Part shown: in pieces, positions 1 to 53,454 of the stretch
Layout: each line of letters starts with the position of its first letter
Numbering within the stretch: position 1 is the stretch's first letter
Source: Gemmatimonadota bacterium
Lineage (GTDB): Bacteria; Gemmatimonadota; Gemmatimonadetes; Palauibacterales; Palauibacteraceae
NCBI GenBank assembly: GCA_033720355.1
Contig: JAWWCR010000001.1
Coordinates: 10,364 to 74,363 of the forward strand
DNA: 64,000 bases
Direction: 5' to 3'
Notes under the pieces: model-generated
What the model was told of the DNA's origin: nothing
Seen by the model: only the letters and a program-made list of their open reading frames with translations
The model's database searches: none
Position numbers and translations under genes: made by a program

Positions 1-624
1 CAGCACGACGGGCATCGCCGCGGCGACGCGTTCCGGCGGCACTCCGACCGCCCCGGCGATGCGGAGTGCCAGGGGAATGACGCCCTGCACGATGAGCGGG
101 ACGGTACACGCGAGCACCCATGGCAGGTAGCGGTGCCGCAGCCAGCGTCGGAGCCGGCCGGTTGCGGCGTTCGCCGGGTCGAGCGCCCGCTCGAAGTCGT
201 ACGGGAACCGGACCGACAGCCGAACCAGCGATGCGGCGGCGAGCGCCAGCGCGAATGCGGCGACAACCACGACCCACCCCTCGGCGCTGATGCTGATCCC
301 GTCGATCTCGCCCCCGGCCGTGTAGTCGAGCGACGCGAACCGGAGGATCGACCCCCAGCAGATCGCGATCAACACGAGGAAGAGCGAGAGGCTCCTCGCT
401 TCGTAGCGCTGGCCGGCTCGCACGATCAGGAAGCCCGCGAGCCCGCAAGCCAGGATCGCGACGACGAGACTCAGCGAGATGGCGAGCACGGTGAGGCGTC
501 CGCCCGGAGGCACTGCCCGATACAGCTCCACCGCCGTGGGCAGCAGGATGGCCACGTGAGCGGTCGCCGCGATCGCGACGACGCCGACGAAGAGCCGGGT
601 GGGCAGGGAGTCGGAGGTGCTCAT
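1..624 (-). CDS. Integral membrane protein, truncated by the window edge
   Basis: Not in the ORF track because it runs off the window. Hand translation of the reverse complement of 361-624 gives MSTSDSLPTRLFVGVVAIAATAHVAILLPTAVELYRAVPPGGRLTVLAISLSLVVAILACGLAGFLIVRAGQRYEARSLSLFLVLIAI, with several hydrophobic helices and no stop. The + ORF 133..630 is an Arg/Pro/Asp-rich shadow. Confidence 0.5.
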   Translation of the reverse strand, partial: MSTSDSLPTRLFVGVVAIAATAHVAILLPTAVELYRAVPPGGRLTVLAISLSLVVAILACGLAGFLIVRAGQRYEARSLSLFLVLIAICWGSILRFASLDYTAGGEIDGISISAEGWVVVVAAFALALAAASLVRLSVRFPYDFERALDPANAATGRLRRWLRHRYLPWVLACTVPLIVQGVIPLALRIAGAVGVPPERVAAAMPVVL

Positions 625-721
625 CGATGATTAGGACACACGAACGGGCGTCCCCGTCACCTCGCTGCGCCGGAAGGCCGACGAGACCGCACCGTCCGCC
701 CCGCCCCCCCGCCGCGGCGCT

Positions 722-2143
722 TTAGCGGTCGTCGCCCTCCTCGTTGGACTCCTCTTCCGCAATGCGCCGCCGCTCGGCCACCAGCCGGTCGTACTCTTCC
801 TGATCGAGATACGTGACGTCGGCCCACAGGTGCGCCATCTCGTCGACGGTCCGATCTCCCCAGTCCACCCATTGCTCGTGGTCGGGGTTGTTCGGGTTGT
901 CGGGTGTGTTGTCGTGCCACGCCGTGACGACGAGCGTCGTTCCGGCGGGGAGGAGCGGCGCCACGTCTTCATCGTAGATGTAGTTGATGTGCCAGTTCCA
1001 CTGGAAGTTGTTGACCTGGCTGATCAGGGTGCGCTCGCCGTCGGGTGTAATGGCCTCGAGCGAGAACGCCTTCCCTCGCATGTGCATGTGCGGCTGGAAG
1101 TTCTCGATCCGGGCCGGCCAGCGAAGCGTGTGGAAGTTCTGGGTGACCGCGATCTCGCCCGGCGGGATGTCGAGACCGCCCGGCTTCGTGGCGTTGTAGA
1201 AGGCGAGCCGTGTGCGGTGTGTCGGCTCCTGCCCCTTCGGATAGAACCACACCCCGAGCTCGACGTAGCTGTCGGGCACCTGTTTGCCGATCGCGTGGAG
1301 GTGCACCTCCCAGCGGATCTGCGAGTTCGGCAGCATCAGCTTGCCCGCGCCATCCGGGAACACCTCGCCCTCCTTCCCGACGGCCCACTCCATGAAGAGA
1401 CCTGGTCCGCCCATGGCGCCCCCGCGAGTGCTCGCCTGCACCGCCCCGGGGCTCATCGCGTCGTCAGACTCGTCCTGCTCGAGAAAAGCGAGGACATGGT
1501 GGGTGATGCGACGCGAATCCAGCCCCGCCGGCTTGATCTCGATCGCCTTCACCCAACGCGGCTCGTCGAGATCGACCGGCGTCACCGGGCGCCACCATTT
1601 GTCCTGGGTCACGGCGTCGAGCGTGAAAGGCTCGGAGCCGACGATCAGGTCGGGCTGGCCGAACTCGTCCGCCAGACGCCACTCGTTAGGATCGGGAAAC
1701 TCCGCGGGCGGCGGAAGATCGGCGGGATCGCCCTCGACACGGCCTCCATCGATCCACGCGACGATCGTCTCGATCTCCTCGTCGGTCAGGCTGCGGTCGT
1801 TCTTGAACTCGCGGATACCGACCGTCCGGTCGATGTGCCACGGTGGCATGACGCGGTTCGAGACCTTCTCGCGGATGCCCGAAGCCCAGCGGTACGCGTC
1901 GCGGTACGTCATGAGCGCCATCGGGGCGATCGAGTTCTCCTGGTGGCACTCCTGGCAGTTCGCCTGGAGGATGGGCATCACGTCGCGGTTGAAAGTGACT
2001 TCGGCGTGGCCGCCCTCCTGCGCGCTCGCCGGCCCGGGCGGCCCCACGACCGCCAGAGCGGCCGCAGCGGTAATGGCGGCGATCGCTCGCCCGGTCCTCG
2101 CCCGTCCGTCTCTCGCGATGCGGTCTACCGAGGTCGTCTTCAT
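722..2143 (-). CDS. Exported cytochrome c (CXXCH) fused to a PHM/DBH-like copper monooxygenase-type domain
   Basis: 473-aa ORF with a signal-like N-terminus (AAALAVVGPPGPASAQE). It has CQECH (C63/C66/H67) plus a downstream RVMPPW. Then come THHV (H215/216), WEVHLH (H281/283), PHMHMRGK (H352/354) and DEMAHLW (M436). SD GGAAGGAG lies just upstream of the ATG. Paralog of 51655..53454. Confidence 0.8.
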   Translation of the reverse strand: MKTTSVDRIARDGRARTGRAIAAITAAAALAVVGPPGPASAQEGGHAEVTFNRDVMPILQANCQECHQENSIAPMALMTYRDAYRWASGIREKVSNRVMPPWHIDRTVGIREFKNDRSLTDEEIETIVAWIDGGRVEGDPADLPPPAEFPDPNEWRLADEFGQPDLIVGSEPFTLDAVTQDKWWRPVTPVDLDEPRWVKAIEIKPAGLDSRRITHHVLAFLEQDESDDAMSPGAVQASTRGGAMGGPGLFMEWAVGKEGEVFPDGAGKLMLPNSQIRWEVHLHAIGKQVPDSYVELGVWFYPKGQEPTHRTRLAFYNATKPGGLDIPPGEIAVTQNFHTLRWPARIENFQPHMHMRGKAFSLEAITPDGERTLISQVNNFQWNWHINYIYDEDVAPLLPAGTTLVVTAWHDNTPDNPNNPDHEQWVDWGDRTVDEMAHLWADVTYLDQEEYDRLVAERRRIAEEESNEEGDDR

Positions 2144-2227: not shown

Positions 2228-3076
2228 CTACGGCGTGACCGTCACCTTCACGAACCCGTTCGTCCAACAACATTGCGCGTGACCCGCGGTCGAGACGCCG
2301 GAGGCGTCGTTCGCCCGAACGCGAAGCACGTACTCGCCGGGAGCGCCGAACATCACCGTCGTGGTGGCGCTCCCGCCCGCCGCCGGGATCTCGGCGGTCG
2401 GTTCACCGAACCACACGTCGCCGGGCCCGCGGTGCTTGAACCAGGTGACCGTCACGGGAACCGCCGTGTCGCCCGAGCCGCGCACGCTCGTGCGGCTCCG
2501 GCCGTCATCGCGCGCGTGAACGGTCAGCTCGAGCGGCTCGTCCGCCGACGCGGTGCGCGTCTTCCCGACGACGCCGGCCGGTCCCATCGCCTCGGGTCCC
2601 CCCTCATCGAACCACACCGTCGGGGGCTTGTTTCCCGACCCTGCTTCGCCGACGATCGCGTCGATCTTCCAGTCGGGGTGCAGGTGTCCCGGCACCCGCT
2701 GCGTCTCGCCCCTCACCGTGAGCGTCCAGTAGACGCGCTGTTCGGGGTCGAAGTCGCTGGGGACGCGGATCGCGAACACTCCGAAGTGGCGCCCCGGCGC
2801 GAAGTGCTCGGGCTGATCGCCGTCCAGGCCGGGCTCGGAGATCGCGTTGGCGTCGCCGAGCGGGACCTCGATCACTTCCTCCATGTTCCGGTTGAAGTAG
2901 CCGAACGACATCGCGATGGTCCCGTCGGGGAGCTCGTACCACCCTTCGTAGGCCGGCGTGACCGTCAGCCCGCTCCCGCTGCGTGGCGGGAGAGGCATCT
3001 CCTGGGCGATCACCGGGCCCGCGGCGCACGCGCCCGTGAGCGCGATCACCGCGGCTCCCCTAGTGATCGGTCGCAT
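2228..3076 (-). CDS. Secreted hypothetical protein, co-oriented upstream partner of the cytochrome c/PHM-like gene
   Basis: 282-aa ORF with a signal peptide (AAVIALTGACAAGPVIAQE). The composition is non-shadow and beta-rich, with a C-terminal HAQCCWTNGF motif. It lies 85 nt upstream of 722..2143 on the same strand. Confidence 0.65.
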   Translation of the reverse strand: MRPITRGAAVIALTGACAAGPVIAQEMPLPPRSGSGLTVTPAYEGWYELPDGTIAMSFGYFNRNMEEVIEVPLGDANAISEPGLDGDQPEHFAPGRHFGVFAIRVPSDFDPEQRVYWTLTVRGETQRVPGHLHPDWKIDAIVGEAGSGNKPPTVWFDEGGPEAMGPAGVVGKTRTASADEPLELTVHARDDGRSRTSVRGSGDTAVPVTVTWFKHRGPGDVWFGEPTAEIPAAGGSATTTVMFGAPGEYVLRVRANDASGVSTAGHAQCCWTNGFVKVTVTP

Positions 3077-3088
3077 CGTCTCTCCGCG

Positions 3089-3991
3089 CTACTGCGTCGA
3101 CGCCGCGATCGACGCCCTGATGGCGGTGACCGTCTGGTCGATCCGGAAGTCGAGGAGCTTCCGACCGATCTCGACCACCTCATCCTTCGGCGCGATCGAG
3201 ACGCCGTTGATGCTGGCCTTCCCGGCCTTCACCCGCTGGTCGTAGCGCACCGTCGTCGGGTCGGTGACCATCATGATCGAGGTGATCACGAAGTCGTCGT
3301 GGATCCCCTCGGGGTCGGTCTCGTAGATCCCGAGCTCGGAGTTCATCCACTCGTGCACCTCGCGGTACTCGTAGAACTCGGGGATGAAGTGCGCGGTCGC
3401 GTCGGTCCACTTCGCGTTCAGACGATCCGCGACGGCCTCCATGCCCTGCTGGTTGCCGCCGCTGTCGCCGAAGAGGATGATGTGCTCGAAGCCGTGCGCC
3501 TCGAGGCTCTCCGCCACGTCGGTGAGGACGGCCTCGAAGGTCTCCTCGCGCAGGCTGATCGTACCGGGATACACCATGTGACCGCTCGGTTCGTCGATCC
3601 CGCCCTCGGGGACGAGCTTGATGATCGGGGCGCAAAGCGCGTTTCCGAGCTCGCGCGCGACGCCCTCGCAGGCGCCCTGTAGCACGTAGTTGTGCTTGCC
3701 CGTCGCGAGGTACGGACCGTTCTGCTCGATGCCGCCCGTCGTGATGATCGCGGTCGTCTTGCCGGCGGCCATAGCGTCGCGGACTTCCATCCACGTGAGT
3801 TCCTCGATCCACACCGAGTCGAAGGCGTCGATCGGACGCGGCGCCCTGAGCTCCTCCTGGATCCGCGCTTCCTGTGCGGCTCGCCGCTGCGCGCGCTCCT
3901 CGGGGGTCAGCTGCTGTTGTTGGGCCGTAAGGGGCGTGGTCGCGATCAGGGCGAGGGCGATGGTGGGCAGGAGGGTCGTTGCTCGCTTCAT
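3089..3991 (-). CDS. Creatininase-family amidohydrolase, exported
   Basis: The track ORF 3089..4282 is trimmed to the internal ATG at 3989-3991 (MKRATTLLPTIALALIATTPLTAQQQQ, a signal peptide). Creatininase-like motifs are present: TTGGIEQNGPYLATGKH and FGDSGGN. Confidence 0.75.
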   Translation of the reverse strand: MKRATTLLPTIALALIATTPLTAQQQQLTPEERAQRRAAQEARIQEELRAPRPIDAFDSVWIEELTWMEVRDAMAAGKTTAIITTGGIEQNGPYLATGKHNYVLQGACEGVARELGNALCAPIIKLVPEGGIDEPSGHMVYPGTISLREETFEAVLTDVAESLEAHGFEHIILFGDSGGNQQGMEAVADRLNAKWTDATAHFIPEFYEYREVHEWMNSELGIYETDPEGIHDDFVITSIMMVTDPTTVRYDQRVKAGKASINGVSIAPKDEVVEIGRKLLDFRIDQTVTAIRASIAASTQ

Positions 3992-5941: not shown

Positions 5942-6742
5942 ATGCCCATCTCCGCGCTCATGGATCTGACCGGCCTCATGGGGCTGACCGCGCTCGCAGA
6001 CCTGGTCGCCTCCGCGTCGACCCTGGTCACGCAGGTCGAGCCGTCCGGAGGGCTCGCCGCGGCTCTGTCGGAGAGCCCGATCGTCGCGCTCGGCGCCCTG
6101 TTCGCGGCAGGGGTGCTGACGAGCTTCACGCCGTGCGTGTACCCGATGATCCCGATCACGGTCTCGGTGATCGGCGGAACCGCGACCGAGGACCAGAGCC
6201 GGTGGCGCACGCTCGGGCTCACCCTCACCTACGCTACCGGTCTGGCGCTCCTGTACGCGTTCCTCGGGATGCTCGCCGGGCTGAGCGGCACGCTCTTCGG
6301 CGCCGTTAGCGCGAGCCCCTGGGCCCTCCTCGCGATCGGGAACCTGCTGTTGCTGTTCGCCCTGTTCATGCTGGACGTGTTCCCCGTACCCGTCCCGCGC
6401 CGTCTGCTCGACTGGGCCGCGAGGAAGGAGGGCGGATCGTACGGTGCGGTCTTCGTCCTCGGTGCGACCTCCGGGGTCGTGACGGCGCCGTGTGGCGCAC
6501 CGGCCTTCGCCGTCGTCCTTACATGGGTCGCGGCGACGCAGGCGGGGCTGATGGGGTTCGTCTACCTCTTCGTCTTCTCGATGGGGATGACGGCGCTGCT
6601 GGTGGTGATCGGCCTGTTCTCGGGAACCCTGGCCGTTCTGCCGCGTTCAGGTTCGTGGATGGTGTGGGTGAAGCGCATCGCCGCCATCATCATGATCGCG
6701 ATGGCGCAGTACTACTTCGTGAGGGCGGGATACAACCTGTGA
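5942..6742 (+). CDS. ccdA: Cytochrome c biogenesis / thiol-disulfide transporter CcdA (DsbD transmembrane-domain family)
   Basis: 266-aa polytopic membrane ORF. It has FTPCVYPMIP and a second-half TAPCGAP motif, the two conserved Cys-containing helices of CcdA/DsbD-beta. Confidence 0.8.
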   Translation: MPISALMDLTGLMGLTALADLVASASTLVTQVEPSGGLAAALSESPIVALGALFAAGVLTSFTPCVYPMIPITVSVIGGTATEDQSRWRTLGLTLTYATGLALLYAFLGMLAGLSGTLFGAVSASPWALLAIGNLLLLFALFMLDVFPVPVPRRLLDWAARKEGGSYGAVFVLGATSGVVTAPCGAPAFAVVLTWVAATQAGLMGFVYLFVFSMGMTALLVVIGLFSGTLAVLPRSGSWMVWVKRIAAIIMIAMAQYYFVRAGYNL

Positions 6743-7296
6743 GCACGACAACACGCGCCCGGTCGGCACGTCCGGGGCGCTCCATTACAGCCGCCCTCAC
6801 GCTGGCGATGGTCGGCCTGTGCGGTGCGGTCGGCGGCGCGGCCGCGCAGACCGGCGAGGGTCAGGTGAGCCTTCCGATCGGCACGCCGGGCCCCGACGCC
6901 GGGCTCCAGGATCTCGACGAGACCGACGTCACGCTGCTCTCGTTCGCCGACGGCAAGCCCACGCTGATCGAGTTCTGGGCGTCGTGGTGCGAGCAGTGCG
7001 AGGCGCTCCAGCCGCAGATCGACGAGATCGTCGCGTCGTACGGCGAGTCGGTGAATGTCGTCGCGGTGGCCGTCGCGGTGTCGCAGTCGTTGCGTCGGGT
7101 GCGCCGGCACGTGGAGGAAGCGGGCCACGACTACCCCTTCCTGTGGGATGCGCGGGGGGAGGCAGTCCGCGCCTACGAGGCGGCGACCACGTCCGTCGTG
7201 GTCATCCTCGACGCCGACGGGCGGGTGGCCTACACCGGCGTGGGGCCCGATCAGAACCTGGTCGCCACCGTCGCGTCGATGGTCGGAGGTCGCTGA
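6739..7296 (+). CDS. TlpA/ResA-like periplasmic thioredoxin (WCEQC)
   Basis: GTG 6739 overlaps the ccdA stop (GTGA). It has a signal/anchor sequence and then LIEFWASWCEQCEALQP (CxxC). The rest matches a redoxin-fold pattern (VNVVAVAV...YPFLWDARGE...VVILDADGRV). Confidence 0.8.
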   Translation: MSTTTRARSARPGRSITAALTLAMVGLCGAVGGAAAQTGEGQVSLPIGTPGPDAGLQDLDETDVTLLSFADGKPTLIEFWASWCEQCEALQPQIDEIVASYGESVNVVAVAVAVSQSLRRVRRHVEEAGHDYPFLWDARGEAVRAYEAATTSVVVILDADGRVAYTGVGPDQNLVATVASMVGGR

Positions 7297-51427: not shown

Positions 51428-51654
51428 CGCGATCGGCTCGCTCCGTCCCCCCGGGCGGATGAGCCGCGAAACGGGCCGTCCCGCGTTGACGTAGGAGAAG
51501 ACGCGTCCGAGAAAGCCGACAGTCCATCGGACGGGGGCCCAGGAGAGGGTGTGGCAGCTCTCCGGGGCCCCTGTTCGCTTGCCCGCGGCCCTCGCGAGGG
51601 TGAGCTTTGCGGGGCCGGCACGGTCGGCATGAACACGAAGTCCAGGAGCCGAAC

Positions 51655-53454
51655 ATGGCACGAAAGACGGCCCTCGCGGCGTTCCCCGTCGCGATCGTCG
51701 CGATCGCGGCGGTTCTCCTTCTCTTCCCCGCCCTCAATCGTACCCCCGTGATCGCCGCGGGCGACATGGGTGCGTTCGGATTCGTCCCGGGCGAGCTGAT
51801 CGCCGATTTCGACTACAGGGACGTGTCGGGCGACAGGGGATCACTCGAGTCCCTGCTCGAGGGGAACGATGCTCTCGTCATCGTGATGCGTACCGCCGAA
51901 TGTCCGGTGTCCCGTCGCTACGGTACCCGGCTGGCGGAGATGGAGCGGGCGTACCGCGAGCGAGGTGTCCAGTTCGTGTATCTGAACATCAGCCAGCAGG
52001 ACTCGAAGGAGGACGTCGCCGAAGACATCGAGCGGTTCGGGTTTGCGGCGCCGTACATCCTCGACCCCGATCGTGAGATCGGCTCGAGGCTGCAGGCGAG
52101 CATCTCGTCCGAGGTCTTCGTGATCGACGCGGCGAAGACACTTCGCTACCGCGGCGCCGTCGACGACCAGCATGGCATCACCTTCTCGAACCCTCGGGTC
52201 GACGAGCAGTACCTGGCCGATGCGCTCGAGGCCGTGCTCGCCGGCTACGACGTCCGGACGCCCTACACCGAAGCCTCCGGCTGCTATCTCGAAGGCGAGA
52301 CGGCCCTCGTCCCGCAACGCGACGTCACCTACCACAGCAGGATCAGCCGGATCGTCAGTCAGAACTGCGTGACCTGTCACCGCGAGGGCGGCGTCGGGCC
52401 GTTCGCGCTCGACAGCTACGAGCAGCTCTACGGCTTCCGGCACATGGTCAGGTTCATGGTCGGCGAGGGGCTGATGCCCCCGTGGTATGCCTCGCCCGAG
52501 CACGGCGAGTGGTCGAACGATCGCAGCCTGTCGGAACGCGACAAGCGCGATCTGCTCGCGTGGATCGACGCCGGTGCCCCCGAGGGCGACCCCGCCACGG
52601 CGGCCCTCCCGCGTCAGCTCAAGCCGGGCTGGATGCTCGGCGTCGAGCCCGACACGGTGATCACGATCCCCGCGCCGCAGGAAGTGCCGGCGGACGGCGT
52701 ACTCGACTACCGACACGTCTACGTCGAGACGAACTGGCCCGAGGACAAGTGGGTCCGGGCCGCGGAGGTCGTGCCGACGGCCAGGCAGGTGACGCACCAC
52801 GTCATCGTCTACCTCGAGGACGAGGACGACGAGGAGCGCGGCGGGTGGCTCGTCGGGTACGCCCCGGGTGTCCCGGCGCGCGACTGGGGCGAGAATACCG
52901 GGAAGCGGATCCCGGCCGGCCAGACGCTCATGTTCGAGCTCCACTACACGACGAATGGAGAGCCGGCGGTCGACGAGACCCGCGTGGGACTCTACTTCCA
53001 CGACGAGCCGCCGCCCGAAGAGGTGTACATGGCCGCGGTCGCGACCGACGAGTTCGAGATCCCGCCGCACGCGGCGAACCACGAGGTCGTCGCCGAGCTC
53101 GAGTTCGAGAACCCCGGACGGATCATCTCGCTGTTGCCGCACATGCACCTGCGCGGGAAAGCGTTCCGCTACGATCTCGTGCGGGCCGACGGATCGAGCG
53201 AGACGCTGCTCGACGTGCCGCGGTACGACTTCAACTGGCAGATGACCTACAAGCCGGTCCACCCGTTCGAGATCCGGGCGGGCGACAGGCTCATCGGGAC
53301 CGCCTGGTACGACAACAGCGAGGGCAACCCGGCGAACCCGGATCCGAGCCAGCCGGTGCGCTACGGCGAGCAGAGCTTCGAGGAGATGATGTTCGGCTTC
53401 TTCGAGCTGCTGCCCGGCGAGGCGCCCGGCGAGGAGTCCTCCCGGGATCAGTGA
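51655..53454 (+). CDS. Three-module redox protein: thioredoxin-fold (CxxS) + cytochrome c (CXXCH) + PHM/DBH-like copper monooxygenase-type domain
   Basis: ATG 51655 gives 599 aa with an N-terminal TM/signal. The redoxin-like block is ALVIVMRTAECPVSRRY...VFVIDAAKTLRYRG. Then come CVTCH (C238/C241/H242) + GLMPPW, THHV (H381/382), ELH (H430), PHMHLRGK (H496/498) and FEEMMFGF (M578/579). Paralog of 722..2143. Confidence 0.8.
   Translation: MARKTALAAFPVAIVAIAAVLLLFPALNRTPVIAAGDMGAFGFVPGELIADFDYRDVSGDRGSLESLLEGNDALVIVMRTAECPVSRRYGTRLAEMERAYRERGVQFVYLNISQQDSKEDVAEDIERFGFAAPYILDPDREIGSRLQASISSEVFVIDAAKTLRYRGAVDDQHGITFSNPRVDEQYLADALEAVLAGYDVRTPYTEASGCYLEGETALVPQRDVTYHSRISRIVSQNCVTCHREGGVGPFALDSYEQLYGFRHMVRFMVGEGLMPPWYASPEHGEWSNDRSLSERDKRDLLAWIDAGAPEGDPATAALPRQLKPGWMLGVEPDTVITIPAPQEVPADGVLDYRHVYVETNWPEDKWVRAAEVVPTARQVTHHVIVYLEDEDDEERGGWLVGYAPGVPARDWGENTGKRIPAGQTLMFELHYTTNGEPAVDETRVGLYFHDEPPPEEVYMAAVATDEFEIPPHAANHEVVAELEFENPGRIISLLPHMHLRGKAFRYDLVRADGSSETLLDVPRYDFNWQMTYKPVHPFEIRAGDRLIGTAWYDNSEGNPANPDPSQPVRYGEQSFEEMMFGFFELLPGEAPGEESSRDQ

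What the first reader, a model, noticed from the sequence alone, without database searches (positions are those of the whole stretch)
722..2143. Haem-c module fused to a domain with the complete PHM/DBH copper-ligand pattern
**Ligand pattern**
- The 473-aa exported protein has one CXXCH (C63-Q-E-C66-H67) with a downstream MPPW, probably the Met axial ligand.
- It then has H215-H216, H281/H283, H352-x-H354 and M436.
- In peptidylglycine alpha-hydroxylating monooxygenase the ligands are H107/H108/H172 (CuH) and H242/H244/M314 (CuM).
- The order matches, and so do the spacings: about 65-67, 69-71 and 82 residues here versus 64, 70 and 70 in PHM.
- The PHMHMRGK block resembles the HxH strand of that family.

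**Interpretation**
- A bacterial PHM-like domain hard-wired to a c-type haem would replace ascorbate with a protein-borne electron donor.
- I am not aware of a characterised member with this architecture.
- Proteins like this tend to be annotated only as redoxin or cytochrome c.
Basis: partly seen in the sequence, partly recalled or inferred. Interest (0 to 1): 0.7.

Follow-up and report, generated by a model that had tools for sequence, protein, structure and literature searches.

The report
Bacterial haem-c-fused PHM-like copper monooxygenase
This gene, publicly labelled only "cytochrome c", encodes an exported bacterial relative of the animal peptide-amidating and dopamine-hydroxylating copper enzymes with a c-type haem fused on as a probable electron donor, and it always sits next to a small unknown partner protein; no member of this large family appears to have been studied.

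Summary

**The protein.** Window 722-2143 (minus strand) encodes a 473-aa exported protein, MDX1392742.1, annotated "cytochrome c". It has one CXXCH (C63/C66/H67) and an invariant M99-P-P-W.

**Conservation.** Across 150 diverse cluster representatives, H215, H216, H281, H352, H354 and M436 are the near-invariant ones among the candidate copper-ligand His/Met checked. H283, H385, H410 and H438 vary.

**Homology to PHM/DBH.**
- The sequence alone gives no Pfam or PDB copper-monooxygenase hit.
- The AlphaFold model's top 31 PDB matches are all PHM or DBH (E about 4e-11).
- A diverse family profile hits DBH (6.7e-11) and PHM (3.3e-10).
- hhalign (97%) aligns all six residues to H107/H108/H172 and H242/H244/M314.
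- PHM's peptide-binding R240, N316 and Y318, and its disulfides, are absent, so the substrate differs.

**New findings.**
- A 282-aa exported two-Ig-domain protein (2228-3076) lies directly upstream in 83 of 84 related loci. It is fused to the enzyme, in either order, in other lineages.
- A PQQ dehydrogenase, often with a small cytochrome c, neighbours 22 of 88 loci.
- PAL-like NHL propellers neighbour three loci.
- A redoxin-fused paralogue lies at 51607-53454.

Function and substrate remain inferred. I rate it a new variant of a known kind.

The parts
722..2143 (-). Whole gene: 473-aa exported haem-c / PHM-like two-copper protein (NCBI MDX1392742.1, annotated 'cytochrome c')
   Evidence: ORF. 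Exact database match. More than 7000 homologues. 17,262 cluster representatives at E<=1e-3.
2021..2143 (-). Signal peptide (aa 1-41: basic n-region, hydrophobic core, A-S-A then Q42)
   Evidence: Read from the sequence. The region has low pLDDT. Homologues share the A-x-A-Q end. No signal-peptide predictor was available.
1739..2005 (-). Mono-haem cytochrome c domain (aa about 47-135)
   Evidence: Weak Pfam hits to Cytochrome_CBB3, Cytochrom_C, Haem_bd and PccH, all below the gathering score. 53 of 76 relatives hit Cytochrome_CBB3. The profile matches the haem domain of hydrazine synthase alpha (E 1.5e-4) and PccH 4rlr.
1943..1957 (-). CXXCH haem-attachment motif C63-Q-E-C66-H67; these are the only two Cys in the protein
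   Evidence: Conserved in 120 of 120 representatives.
1838..1849 (-). M99-P-P-W, probable distal Met haem ligand
   Evidence: M99, P100 and P101 are conserved in 135 of 135 representatives. The assignment as axial ligand is inferred.
1229..1648 (-). PHM-like N-terminal beta-sandwich (CuH domain), aa about 166-305
   Evidence: Foldseek. hhalign. Beta-strand content.
1496..1501 (-). H215-H216, aligned to PHM CuH ligands H107/H108
   Evidence: Conserved in 128 of 132 and 126 of 131 representatives.
1301..1303 (-). H281, aligned to PHM CuH ligand H172
   Evidence: Conserved in 122 of 125 representatives. The neighbouring H283 is conserved in only 64 of 124.
806..1228 (-). PHM-like C-terminal beta-sandwich (CuM domain), aa about 306-446
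   Evidence: Foldseek. hhalign. 36 of 76 relatives hit Pfam Cu2_monoox_C.
1082..1090 (-). H352-M-H354 within PHMHMRGK, aligned to PHM CuM ligands H242/H244 within VHTHHLGK
   Evidence: Conserved in 117 of 118 and 115 of 116 representatives.
836..838 (-). M436 within TVDEM, aligned to PHM CuM ligand M314 within SSDEM
   Evidence: Conserved in 101 of 102 representatives. The preceding loop 427-434 has pLDDT below 50.
722..805 (-). C-terminal amphipathic helix and acidic tail (aa 447-473) plus stop codon
   Evidence: Helix 448-468 in the model. Poorly conserved.
2228..3076 (-). Obligate partner gene: 282-aa exported protein of two Ig-like/PKD beta-sandwich domains. It ends 84 nt upstream of the target gene, and a GGAAGGAG ribosome-binding site lies in that spacer.
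   Evidence: - Directly upstream on the same strand in 83 of 84 loci; the one miss is a contig end.
- Fused to the enzyme in P0123, P0133, P0134 and P0136.
- 100% identical to an NCBI 'hypothetical protein'.
- AF2 pLDDT 78.6, with only generic Ig-fold matches.
- Weak PKD hits in 35 of 38 members.
- Spacer sequence.
3089..3991 (-). Exported creatininase-family amidohydrolase. It ends 12 nt before the partner gene and is probably in the same operon in this clade. Its link to the system is uncertain.
   Evidence: Pfam Creatininase E 2.9e-34. Found upstream only in 16 loci that BLAST found, all from Palauibacter-like close relatives, plus the window itself.

Best explanation
The gene encodes a periplasmic (Sec-exported) enzyme of the PHM/DBH type, that is, a non-coupled two-copper monooxygenase, with a mono-haem cytochrome c domain fused to its N-terminus. 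It works in a complex with the two-Ig-domain protein encoded immediately upstream.

**Shown.**
- The CXXCH haem motif is present.
- The core has the PHM/DBH fold and is homologous to it.
- All three CuH ligands (H215, H216, H281) and all three CuM ligands (H352, H354, M436) are retained.
- The gene is strictly linked to the partner gene, and the two are fused in some lineages.

**Inferred mechanism.**
1. Electrons from the periplasmic cytochrome c pool enter the fused haem. In about a quarter of loci a PQQ dehydrogenase is encoded alongside, often with a small cytochrome c.
2. The electrons pass to CuH and then to CuM.
3. At CuM, O2 is activated to a Cu(II)-superoxo species that abstracts a hydrogen and hydroxylates a C-H bond of an organic substrate.
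4. Haem c therefore takes the place of ascorbate (PHM, DBH).

**Substrate.** It is not a peptidyl-glycine bound as in PHM, because R240, N316 and Y318 are replaced by Q350, H438 and W440. The partner most likely contributes to substrate binding or docking.
For: **Homology to PHM/DBH.**
- Foldseek top 31 PDB hits are all PHM or DBH, E 4e-11 to 6e-9, probability 1.00, about 300 aligned columns; the next hit is at 3.6e-5.
- Profile A2 against PDB sequences gives DBH 6.7e-11 and PHM 3.3e-10.
- hhalign of A2 against a rat PHM fragment gives 97% probability, E 1.2e-10 and 236 columns, with all six ligands aligned.
- Pfam Cu2_monoox_C is hit by 36 of 76 relatives and Cu2_monooxygen by 11 of 76.
- A paralogue in the same window passes the Cu2_monoox_C gathering score and is 31% identical, E 8e-47.

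**Conservation.** Only the six ligands and the haem residues are conserved among the His/Met checked.

**Partner.** It is adjacent in 83 of 84 loci. Rosetta-stone fusions occur in both orders.

**Neighbours.**
- A PQQ dehydrogenase is adjacent in 22 of 88 loci, with a small cytochrome c in 13 of them. The arrangements differ and the loci span Gemmatimonadota and Acidobacteriota.
- PAL-like NHL propellers lie next to three cassette versions, with the Zn ligand H585 and catalytic Y654 aligned.
Against: - The window protein itself has no Pfam or PDB-sequence hit to copper monooxygenases. A narrow profile gave only a spurious 11.7% hhalign match.
The loop before M436 has low confidence.
- There is no experimental metal content, no known substrate and no known activity for any family member.
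- PHM's five disulfides and its substrate-anchoring residues are absent.
- The PQQ dehydrogenase and PAL-like neighbours are absent from this 64-kb window.
- Haem-c fusions to periplasmic copper proteins are more typical of reductases than of monooxygenases (my own knowledge, not tested here).
Confidence: 0.6

Rival explanations
1. The protein is a haem-c/copper redox enzyme that reduces or oxidises a small inorganic molecule (nitrite, NO, superoxide or peroxide, or O2 as an oxidase) and does not hydroxylate a C-H bond. The PHM-like scaffold would simply supply two copper sites fed by the haem.
For: - The architecture, a c-type haem fused to a periplasmic copper protein, resembles cytochrome-c-fused NirK and cNosZ (my own knowledge).
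- PHM's CuM is crystallised with nitrite, azide and CO (entry titles 3mib, 3mlk, 3mlj).
- Many paralogues, including window 51607-53454, carry an AhpC/TSA-redoxin domain.
- No organic substrate pocket could be identified.
Against: - The His3 + His2Met ligand set is, among characterised enzymes, specific to O2-activating hydroxylases (PHM, DBH, TBM).
- Recurrent neighbours are organic-substrate enzymes: PQQ alcohol/sugar dehydrogenases in 22 of 88 loci and PAL-like lyases.
- No denitrification or ROS genes recur in the 84 loci.
Confidence: 0.2
2. The enzyme is a dedicated protein-modifying hydroxylase whose substrate is its partner protein. For example, it could hydroxylate or cross-link a residue near the invariant H266-A-Q-C-C-W motif to make a cofactor.
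For: - Gene pairing is strict, one to one.
- The partner has an invariant vicinal Cys-Cys-Trp next to a His in 38 of 38 close homologues.
- PHM itself acts on peptides.
Against: - The CCW motif is missing from the fused versions P0133, P0134 and P0136, while the partner's N-domain motifs (EGW, FGYxNRN, GQP) persist.
- Permanent fusion, and splitting of the partner around the enzyme (P0136), fit a subunit better than a substrate.
- Foldseek gives no link to any cofactor-bearing protein.
Confidence: 0.1
3. The His/Met pattern is a relic. The beta-sandwich core is a non-catalytic, copper-free binding or structural module attached to an ordinary electron-transfer cytochrome c.
For: There is no direct Pfam hit for this sequence, and no biochemical data exist.
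Against: The six ligand positions are 96-100% conserved across clusters that share only about 30-40% identity, while other His residues drift. A relic would not be held like this.
Confidence: 0.05

Closest known systems
Peptidylglycine alpha-hydroxylating monooxygenase (PHM, catalytic core of PAM; PDB 1phm, 1opm, 1sdw)
   Same: - Same two-beta-sandwich fold (Foldseek E 4e-11).
- Sequence-profile homology (E 3.3e-10; hhalign 97%).
- Identical ligand set and order: HH...H for CuH and HxH...M for CuM.
- Shared local motifs HxHxxGK and (S/T)xDEM.
   Different: - Bacterial and periplasmic.
- An N-terminal c-type haem domain is fused on.
- No disulfides; the only Cys are in the CXXCH.
- The peptide-anchoring residues R240, N316 and Y318 are replaced by Q350, H438 and W440.
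- It has an obligate Ig-domain partner.
- Identity is only about 15%, and the sequence is below the Pfam thresholds.
Dopamine beta-hydroxylase / tyramine beta-monooxygenase / MOXD1 (PDB 4zel)
   Same: - Best PDB sequence hit of the family profile (E 6.7e-11).
- Like DBH, it has Gln rather than Arg two residues before the HxH motif (alignment).
- An accessory beta-sandwich module accompanies the catalytic core: DOMON in DBH, the Ig-like partner here.
   Different: - The accessory module is a separate two-Ig-domain protein with no DOMON match.
- The presumed electron donor is a covalently bound haem c rather than ascorbate.
- No dimerisation domain.
AhpC/TSA-redoxin + cytochrome c + Cu2_monoox_C bacterial proteins (for example the paralogue at window 51607-53454)
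   Same: Same haem-c plus PHM-like core with the same ligands, 31% identity. This branch is recognised by Pfam. 13 of 76 sampled relatives have this architecture.
   Different: They carry an N-terminal redoxin domain. The sampled example had no adjacent partner gene (partner profile search). To my knowledge they are also uncharacterised.
Haem domain of hydrazine synthase alpha (5c2v) and PccH (4rlr) type cytochromes
   Same: The motif around the haem, (T/V)-F-x-R-D-(V/I)-x-P-I-L-x-x-x-C-x-x-C-H, matches HZS-alpha residues 637-666.
   Different: The match is local and covers the haem-binding helix only. The rest of those proteins is unrelated.
Cytochrome-c-fused periplasmic copper enzymes (NirK-cyt c, cNosZ) and the proposed PQQ methanol dehydrogenase to cytochrome cL to pMMO electron recycling
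   Same: The analogy is functional only. A c-haem is hard-wired to a copper active site, and a PQQ dehydrogenase with its cytochrome c is encoded beside a copper oxygenase. The comparison rests on my own knowledge.
   Different: No homology of the copper domains, and different chemistry.

Membership tests
Copper type II ascorbate-dependent monooxygenases (PHM/DBH/TBM; Pfam PF01082 + PF03712) | Two tandem beta-sandwich domains with the PHM fold | tested here: met
   - AF2 model has pLDDT 77.
- Foldseek top 31 PDB hits are all PHM or DBH, with about 300 aligned columns and TM 0.52-0.59 on the PHM entries when normalised to the target.
Copper type II ascorbate-dependent monooxygenases (PHM/DBH/TBM; Pfam PF01082 + PF03712) | CuH site: His-His pair plus a third His about 64 residues downstream | tested here: met
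   H215/H216/H281 align to H107/H108/H172 and are conserved in at least 96% of 150 representatives.
Copper type II ascorbate-dependent monooxygenases (PHM/DBH/TBM; Pfam PF01082 + PF03712) | CuM site: HxH plus a downstream Met in a DEM motif | tested here: met
   H352/H354/M436 align to H242/H244/M314 and are conserved in at least 99% of representatives.
Copper type II ascorbate-dependent monooxygenases (PHM/DBH/TBM; Pfam PF01082 + PF03712) | Sequence passes the Pfam gathering score for Cu2_monooxygen or Cu2_monoox_C | tested here: not met
   - The window protein has no hit even at E<=1.
- 36 of 76 relatives hit Cu2_monoox_C at E<=0.01.
- The paralogue in this window passes the gathering score, 24.2 against 23 bits.
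Copper type II ascorbate-dependent monooxygenases (PHM/DBH/TBM; Pfam PF01082 + PF03712) | Two copper ions about 11 A apart across a solvent cleft | not testable with these tools
   Model coordinates are not exposed, and no metal analysis is possible.
Copper type II ascorbate-dependent monooxygenases (PHM/DBH/TBM; Pfam PF01082 + PF03712) | Ascorbate as the physiological reductant | not testable with these tools
   The fused haem c and the periplasmic location argue for a cytochrome donor instead. This is inference.
PHM proper (peptidylglycine hydroxylase, EC 1.14.17.3) | Peptide C-terminal carboxylate and backbone anchors R240, N316 and Y318 | tested here: not met
   hhalign places Q350, H438 and W440 at these positions. 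Q350 is invariant in close homologues.
PHM proper (peptidylglycine hydroxylase, EC 1.14.17.3) | Conserved intradomain disulfides | tested here: not met
   The only Cys are C63 and C66 of the haem motif.
c-type cytochromes (class I-like mono-haem) | CXXCH motif with a distal Met, on an exported polypeptide | tested here: met
   - CQECH is at residues 63-67 and M99 is invariant.
- A signal peptide can be read from the sequence.
- Pfam cytochrome hits are below the gathering score for this sequence.
- 53 of 76 relatives hit Cytochrome_CBB3.

The most novel reading that the evidence does not exclude
The cassette is the hydroxylase of a respiratory-chain-driven bacterial counterpart of the animal PAM pathway. 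It would work as follows:
1. A periplasmic haem-c/PHM-like enzyme, with its Ig-domain subunit, hydroxylates the carbon next to an amide or amine nitrogen.
2. A PAL-like Zn lyase then cleaves the carbinolamide. In some clades another hydrolase may do this, such as the exported creatininase-family enzyme encoded upstream here.
3. A PQQ dehydrogenase with its cytochrome c oxidises a product and returns electrons to the fused haem.

The pathway would need no ascorbate or NAD(P)H. It would be a previously unknown route for oxidative N-dealkylation or amide cleavage in Gemmatimonadota and Acidobacteriota.
Probability: 0.15. Interest if true: 0.85.

Novelty: new variant of a known kind. Interest (0 to 1): 0.65.

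Why it matters
- All characterised non-coupled two-copper monooxygenases (PHM, DBH, TBM) are eukaryotic and depend on ascorbate. How electrons cross the roughly 11 A gap from CuH to CuM is still debated.
- A large bacterial clade exists here. At least 593 of the GTDB species genomes scanned hold a close relative, and there are thousands of protein clusters.
- In this clade a covalently bound haem c is wired to the same copper core. That gives a natural, spectroscopically visible and electrochemically addressable electron entry point for studying that step.
- It also points to unexplored periplasmic C-H hydroxylation chemistry in abundant soil, marine and sponge-associated phyla.
- It defines a new two-Ig-domain partner family with no annotation.
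- In practice, thousands of genes labelled "cytochrome c" or "hypothetical protein" could be re-annotated.

Tried and rejected
**Searches that missed the PHM link.**
- Pfam and NCBIfam scans of the single sequence gave only sub-threshold cytochrome hits.
- phmmer of the sequence against PDB gave no hits.
- A profile of 31 close homologues against PDB gave no PHM hit.
- hhalign of that narrow profile against PHM gave a spurious 11.7% match. It paired the N-domain EVHLHAIGK strand with PHM's H242/H244 strand. I rejected it in favour of the 97% full-length alignment from the diverse profile.

**Technical dead ends.**
- The search for related loci with the diverse alignment A2 failed because no block was conserved enough. 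A1 was used instead.

**Partner protein.**
- Pfam gave only weak PKD hits.
- The PDB profile search gave no hits.
- Foldseek gave only generic Ig-fold matches.
- I considered that the partner's CCW motif marks a quinone-type cofactor. I downgraded the idea because the fused versions lack the motif.

**Context.**
- I looked for universally conserved neighbours beyond the partner and found none.
- I searched this window for PQQ dehydrogenase and PAL-like genes and found none.

**Literature.** Seven searches for a characterised bacterial haem-c/PHM-like enzyme found nothing relevant. Subscription-only literature was not covered.
Full report
**1. Observation**

Window 722-2143 holds a 473-aa ORF on the minus strand.
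- C63-Q-E-C66-H67, which are the only two cysteines in the protein
- M99-P-P-W
- H215-H216
- H281 and H283
- H352-M-H354
- M436

The N-terminus (basic stretch, hydrophobic core, A-S-A before Q42) reads as a Sec signal peptide. A GGAAGGAG ribosome-binding site precedes the ATG. The exact protein is NCBI MDX1392742.1, "MAG: cytochrome c [Gemmatimonadota bacterium]". The closest named relatives are from Candidatus Palauibacter.

**2. Is the pattern more than chance?**

The protein has 15 His and 12 Met.
- In 31 close homologues (60-86% identity) many of these residues are invariant, so that set cannot discriminate.
- In the 150 best representatives of 50%-identity clusters, found with a family profile among 1.84 billion proteins, conservation separates two groups.

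| Group | Residues (conserved / scored) |
|---|---|
| Haem residues, held | C63, C66, H67 (120/120 each); M99 (135/135) |
| Candidate copper ligands, held | H215 (128/132), H216 (126/131), H281 (122/125), H352 (117/118), H354 (115/116), M436 (101/102) |
| Not held | H103 (70/134), H283 (64/124), H385 (26/114), H410 (30/106), H438 (20/95) |

An alignment of 76 full-length diverse members (29-49% identity to the query) leaves only 13 invariant columns. Seven of them are C63, C66, H67, M99, H215, H281 and H352/H354. Selection therefore holds exactly one haem site plus the PHM ligand set.

**3. Homology to PHM/DBH**

Single-sequence methods fail:
- Pfam and NCBIfam give only sub-threshold cytochrome hits.
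- phmmer against PDB gives nothing.
- A narrow family profile against PDB gives nothing relevant.

Three independent, more sensitive routes agree.

(a) Structure. The AF2 model has pLDDT 77.1 and pTM 0.76. Its top 31 Foldseek matches in the PDB are all PHM or DBH. They have E 4e-11 to 6e-9, probability 1.00 and about 300 aligned columns covering the whole PHM core. The next hit drops to E 3.6e-5.

(b) Sequence profile. The 76-member profile hits DBH 4zel at 6.7e-11 and PHM at 3.3e-10. hhalign of the same alignment against the rat PHM fragment printed gives 97% probability, E 1.2e-10 and 236 columns.

(c) Transitivity.
- 36 of 76 relatives match Pfam Cu2_monoox_C and 11 of 76 match Cu2_monooxygen.
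- A paralogue in this same window (51607-53454, +) is 31% identical to the target (E 8e-47).
- That paralogue passes the Cu2_monoox_C gathering score, 24.2 against 23 bits.

The hhalign alignment pairs these segments:

| This protein | PHM | Ligand correspondence |
|---|---|---|
| ITHHVLAF | TVHHMLLF | H215/H216 = H107/H108 |
| RWEVHLH | VLQVHYG | H281 = H172 |
| FQPHMHMRGK | YRVHTHHLGK | H352/H354 = H242/H244 |
| TVDEMAHLW | SSDEMCNLY | M436 = M314 |

I checked the offset of the PHM fragment against Y79, C81 and M314. The PHM residue numbers themselves come from my own knowledge of the literature.

**4. Differences from PHM**

- The residues that hold the peptidyl-glycine substrate in PHM (R240, N316, Y318; roles from the literature) align to Q350, H438 and W440. 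DBH also has Gln at the R240 position.
- None of PHM's disulfides can exist, because the only cysteines carry the haem.
- The protein should therefore not be filed as a peptidylglycine hydroxylase. It is a divergent bacterial branch of the superfamily.

**5. The haem module**

- There is one CXXCH.
- M-P-P-W is invariant, with M99 lying 32 residues after H67.
- The haem-binding helix motif TF-x-RDV-x-PIL-x-x-x-C-x-x-CH matches the C-terminal haem domain of hydrazine synthase alpha and PccH.
- Haem c attachment requires export, which places the copper core in the periplasm, where ascorbate is not an expected reductant.
- Haem to CuH to CuM electron flow is inferred from this architecture. I could not measure distances because model coordinates are not exposed.

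**6. An obligate partner, new relative to the finding**

The gene at 2228-3076 (-) ends 84 nt upstream of the target. It encodes a 282-aa exported protein with no annotation. It is 100% identical to NCBI 'hypothetical protein R3195_00060'.

Linkage to the target:
- A homologue lies directly upstream on the same strand in 83 of 84 related loci. These loci come from Gemmatimonadota, Acidobacteriota and some 'Proteobacteria' MAGs. The single miss is a contig that ends 57 nt upstream.
- No other neighbour is universal.

Fusions and rearrangements in more distant lineages:
- P0123 is partner then enzyme.
- P0133 and P0134 are enzyme then partner.
- P0136 has the partner split around the enzyme.
- In L085 partner copies lie downstream of the enzyme.
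- P0127 and P0139 are tandem duplications of the enzyme.

Fusions in several orders are strong evidence for a physical complex.

What the partner looks like:
- Its model (pLDDT 78.6) is two Ig-like beta-sandwiches with only generic structural matches. The C-terminal domain is weakly PKD-like.
- Its N-domain motifs (EGW, FGYxNRN, GQPxxF) persist across all versions.
- The striking invariant H-A-Q-C-C-W of the close family is absent from the fused forms. This argues against a cofactor role for that motif across the whole family.

**7. Context clues to function**

PQQ dehydrogenase:
- A soluble PQQ quinoprotein dehydrogenase of about 650 aa lies beside the cassette in 22 of 88 loci. A small cytochrome c accompanies it in 13 of these.
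- Its best matches are quinohaemoprotein alcohol dehydrogenases and the glucose/quinate/shikimate family.
- It occurs in three arrangements: upstream on the same strand, divergent, or immediately downstream.
- The loci span Gemmatimonadaceae, Bryobacterales, Thermoanaerobaculia and Terriglobia.
- This fits a periplasmic electron supply, and possibly oxidation of a hydroxylated product.

PAL-like NHL propellers:
- An NHL beta-propeller lies next to the cassette in three lineages: L045, L085 and L086/L087.
- The best PDB match of its N-terminal part is the PAL lyase domain of PAM, 3fvz, at E 8.5e-16.
- PAL's Zn ligand H585 and catalytic Y654 align to His and Tyr. H690, R706 and H786 look conserved by eye.
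- A PHM-like enzyme beside a PAL-like enzyme recalls the two-step PAM reaction.
- The association is sparse, however, and neither a PAL-like nor a PQQ dehydrogenase gene is present in this 64-kb window.

Genes near the cassette in this window:
- An exported creatininase-family amidohydrolase (3089-3991) ends 12 nt before the partner gene. It is conserved only among close relatives.
- A CcdA/DsbD_TM gene and a TlpA-like redoxin lie 3.8 kb away.

**8. Mechanism and rivals**

- Best supported (0.6): a periplasmic PHM/DBH-type monooxygenase. Its fused haem c takes electrons from the cytochrome c pool and delivers them to CuH and then CuM for O2 activation and C-H hydroxylation of an unknown, non-peptidylglycine organic substrate. 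The Ig-domain partner acts as a subunit.
- Rival (0.2): a small-molecule reductase or oxidase built on the same copper scaffold.
- Rival (0.1): an enzyme that modifies its own partner.
- Rival (0.05): a copper-free relic.
- The fold, the ligands, the haem motif and the partner linkage are shown. Electron flow, O2 chemistry and substrate class are inferred.

**9. Novelty**

- Seven full-text searches found no paper on a bacterial haem-c/PHM-like enzyme, or on bacterial Cu2_monoox proteins at all. Subscription-only literature was not covered.
- The domain-level link is already visible in Pfam for the redoxin-fused branch, so the superfamily membership is not categorically new.
- What is new is a haem-wired, partner-dependent bacterial variant that public annotation misses. 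The family is large:
  - 17,262 cluster representatives at E<=1e-3 (some may match only the haem domain) and 2,493 at E<=1e-30
  - close relatives in at least 593 species genomes
- Verdict: new variant of a known kind, interest 0.65.

Noticed in passing
window 51607-53454 (+): A second, divergent paralogue sits in the same window. Its 615-aa ORF has an AhpC/TSA-redoxin domain, a CXXCH haem and a PHM-like core (VTHHV, ELHY, PHMHLRGK, EEM). It passes the Pfam gathering score for Cu2_monoox_C and is 31% identical to the target. No partner homologue was found elsewhere in the window.
   Followed up: partly
window 2228-3076 (-): The partner family has no annotation anywhere (1911 homologues, all 'hypothetical'). 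Close members share an invariant H266-A-Q-C269-C270-W271, that is, vicinal cysteines next to Trp, plus invariant H97 and H215. The role of the CCW motif is unexplained, and the fused versions lack it.
   Followed up: partly
L086 4779-5921 (-), L085 1306-2421 (+), L045 1299-2348 (+): NHL beta-propellers lie adjacent to distant or related cassette versions. The best PDB match for the N-terminal part of the L086 protein is the PAL lyase domain of PAM (3fvz, E 8.5e-16). PAL's Zn ligand H585 and catalytic Y654 are conserved in the alignment; H690, R706 and H786 look conserved by eye. This may be a bacterial PHM-like plus PAL-like pairing.
   Followed up: partly
22 of 88 related loci, e.g. L001 4633-7028, L070 7354-9792, L045 2399-4806: A soluble PQQ quinoprotein dehydrogenase of about 650 aa neighbours the cassette, and 13 of these loci also have a small cytochrome c. 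Three different arrangements occur across Gemmatimonadota and Acidobacteriota. It is absent from this window.
   Followed up: partly
proteins P0123, P0133, P0134, P0136, P0127, P0139 (family representatives): Natural fusions of partner and enzyme occur in both orders, and in P0136 the partner is split around the enzyme. P0127 (1251 aa) and P0139 (1064 aa) are tandem duplications of the whole haem-PHM-like module.
   Followed up: yes
window 3089-3991 (-): An exported creatininase-family amidohydrolase with a signal peptide ends 12 nt before the partner gene and is probably co-transcribed. BLAST found this arrangement only in 16 loci of Palauibacter-like close relatives, plus the window itself.
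   Followed up: partly
window 5942-6742 (+) and 6730-7296 (+): A CcdA/DsbD_TM cytochrome c biogenesis membrane protein is followed by a TlpA-like redoxin with a WCEQC motif, 3.8 kb from the haem protein. This may be the stand-alone counterpart of the redoxin domain fused in paralogues. The pair was not among the recurrent neighbours in other loci.
   Followed up: no
window 1295-1321 (-), aa 275-283: In this subfamily the CuH-domain strand reads EVHLHAIGK, which mimics the CuM strand PHMHMRGK (HxHxxGK). A narrow profile cross-aligned it to PHM H242/H244. H283 is kept in only about half of the representatives. It could be a fourth CuH ligand in this clade, or a trace of domain duplication.
   Followed up: no
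family representatives in alignment A2: Five of 76 family members carry EF-hand domains. Single members carry other extra domains: lipocalin-like, alpha/beta-hydrolase or PETase-like, 5'-nucleotidase C-terminal, and TPR.
   Followed up: no
window 1-630 (-): A multi-pass membrane protein ORF starts at about 630 on the minus strand, downstream of the target, and runs off the window start. It was not identified.
   Followed up: no
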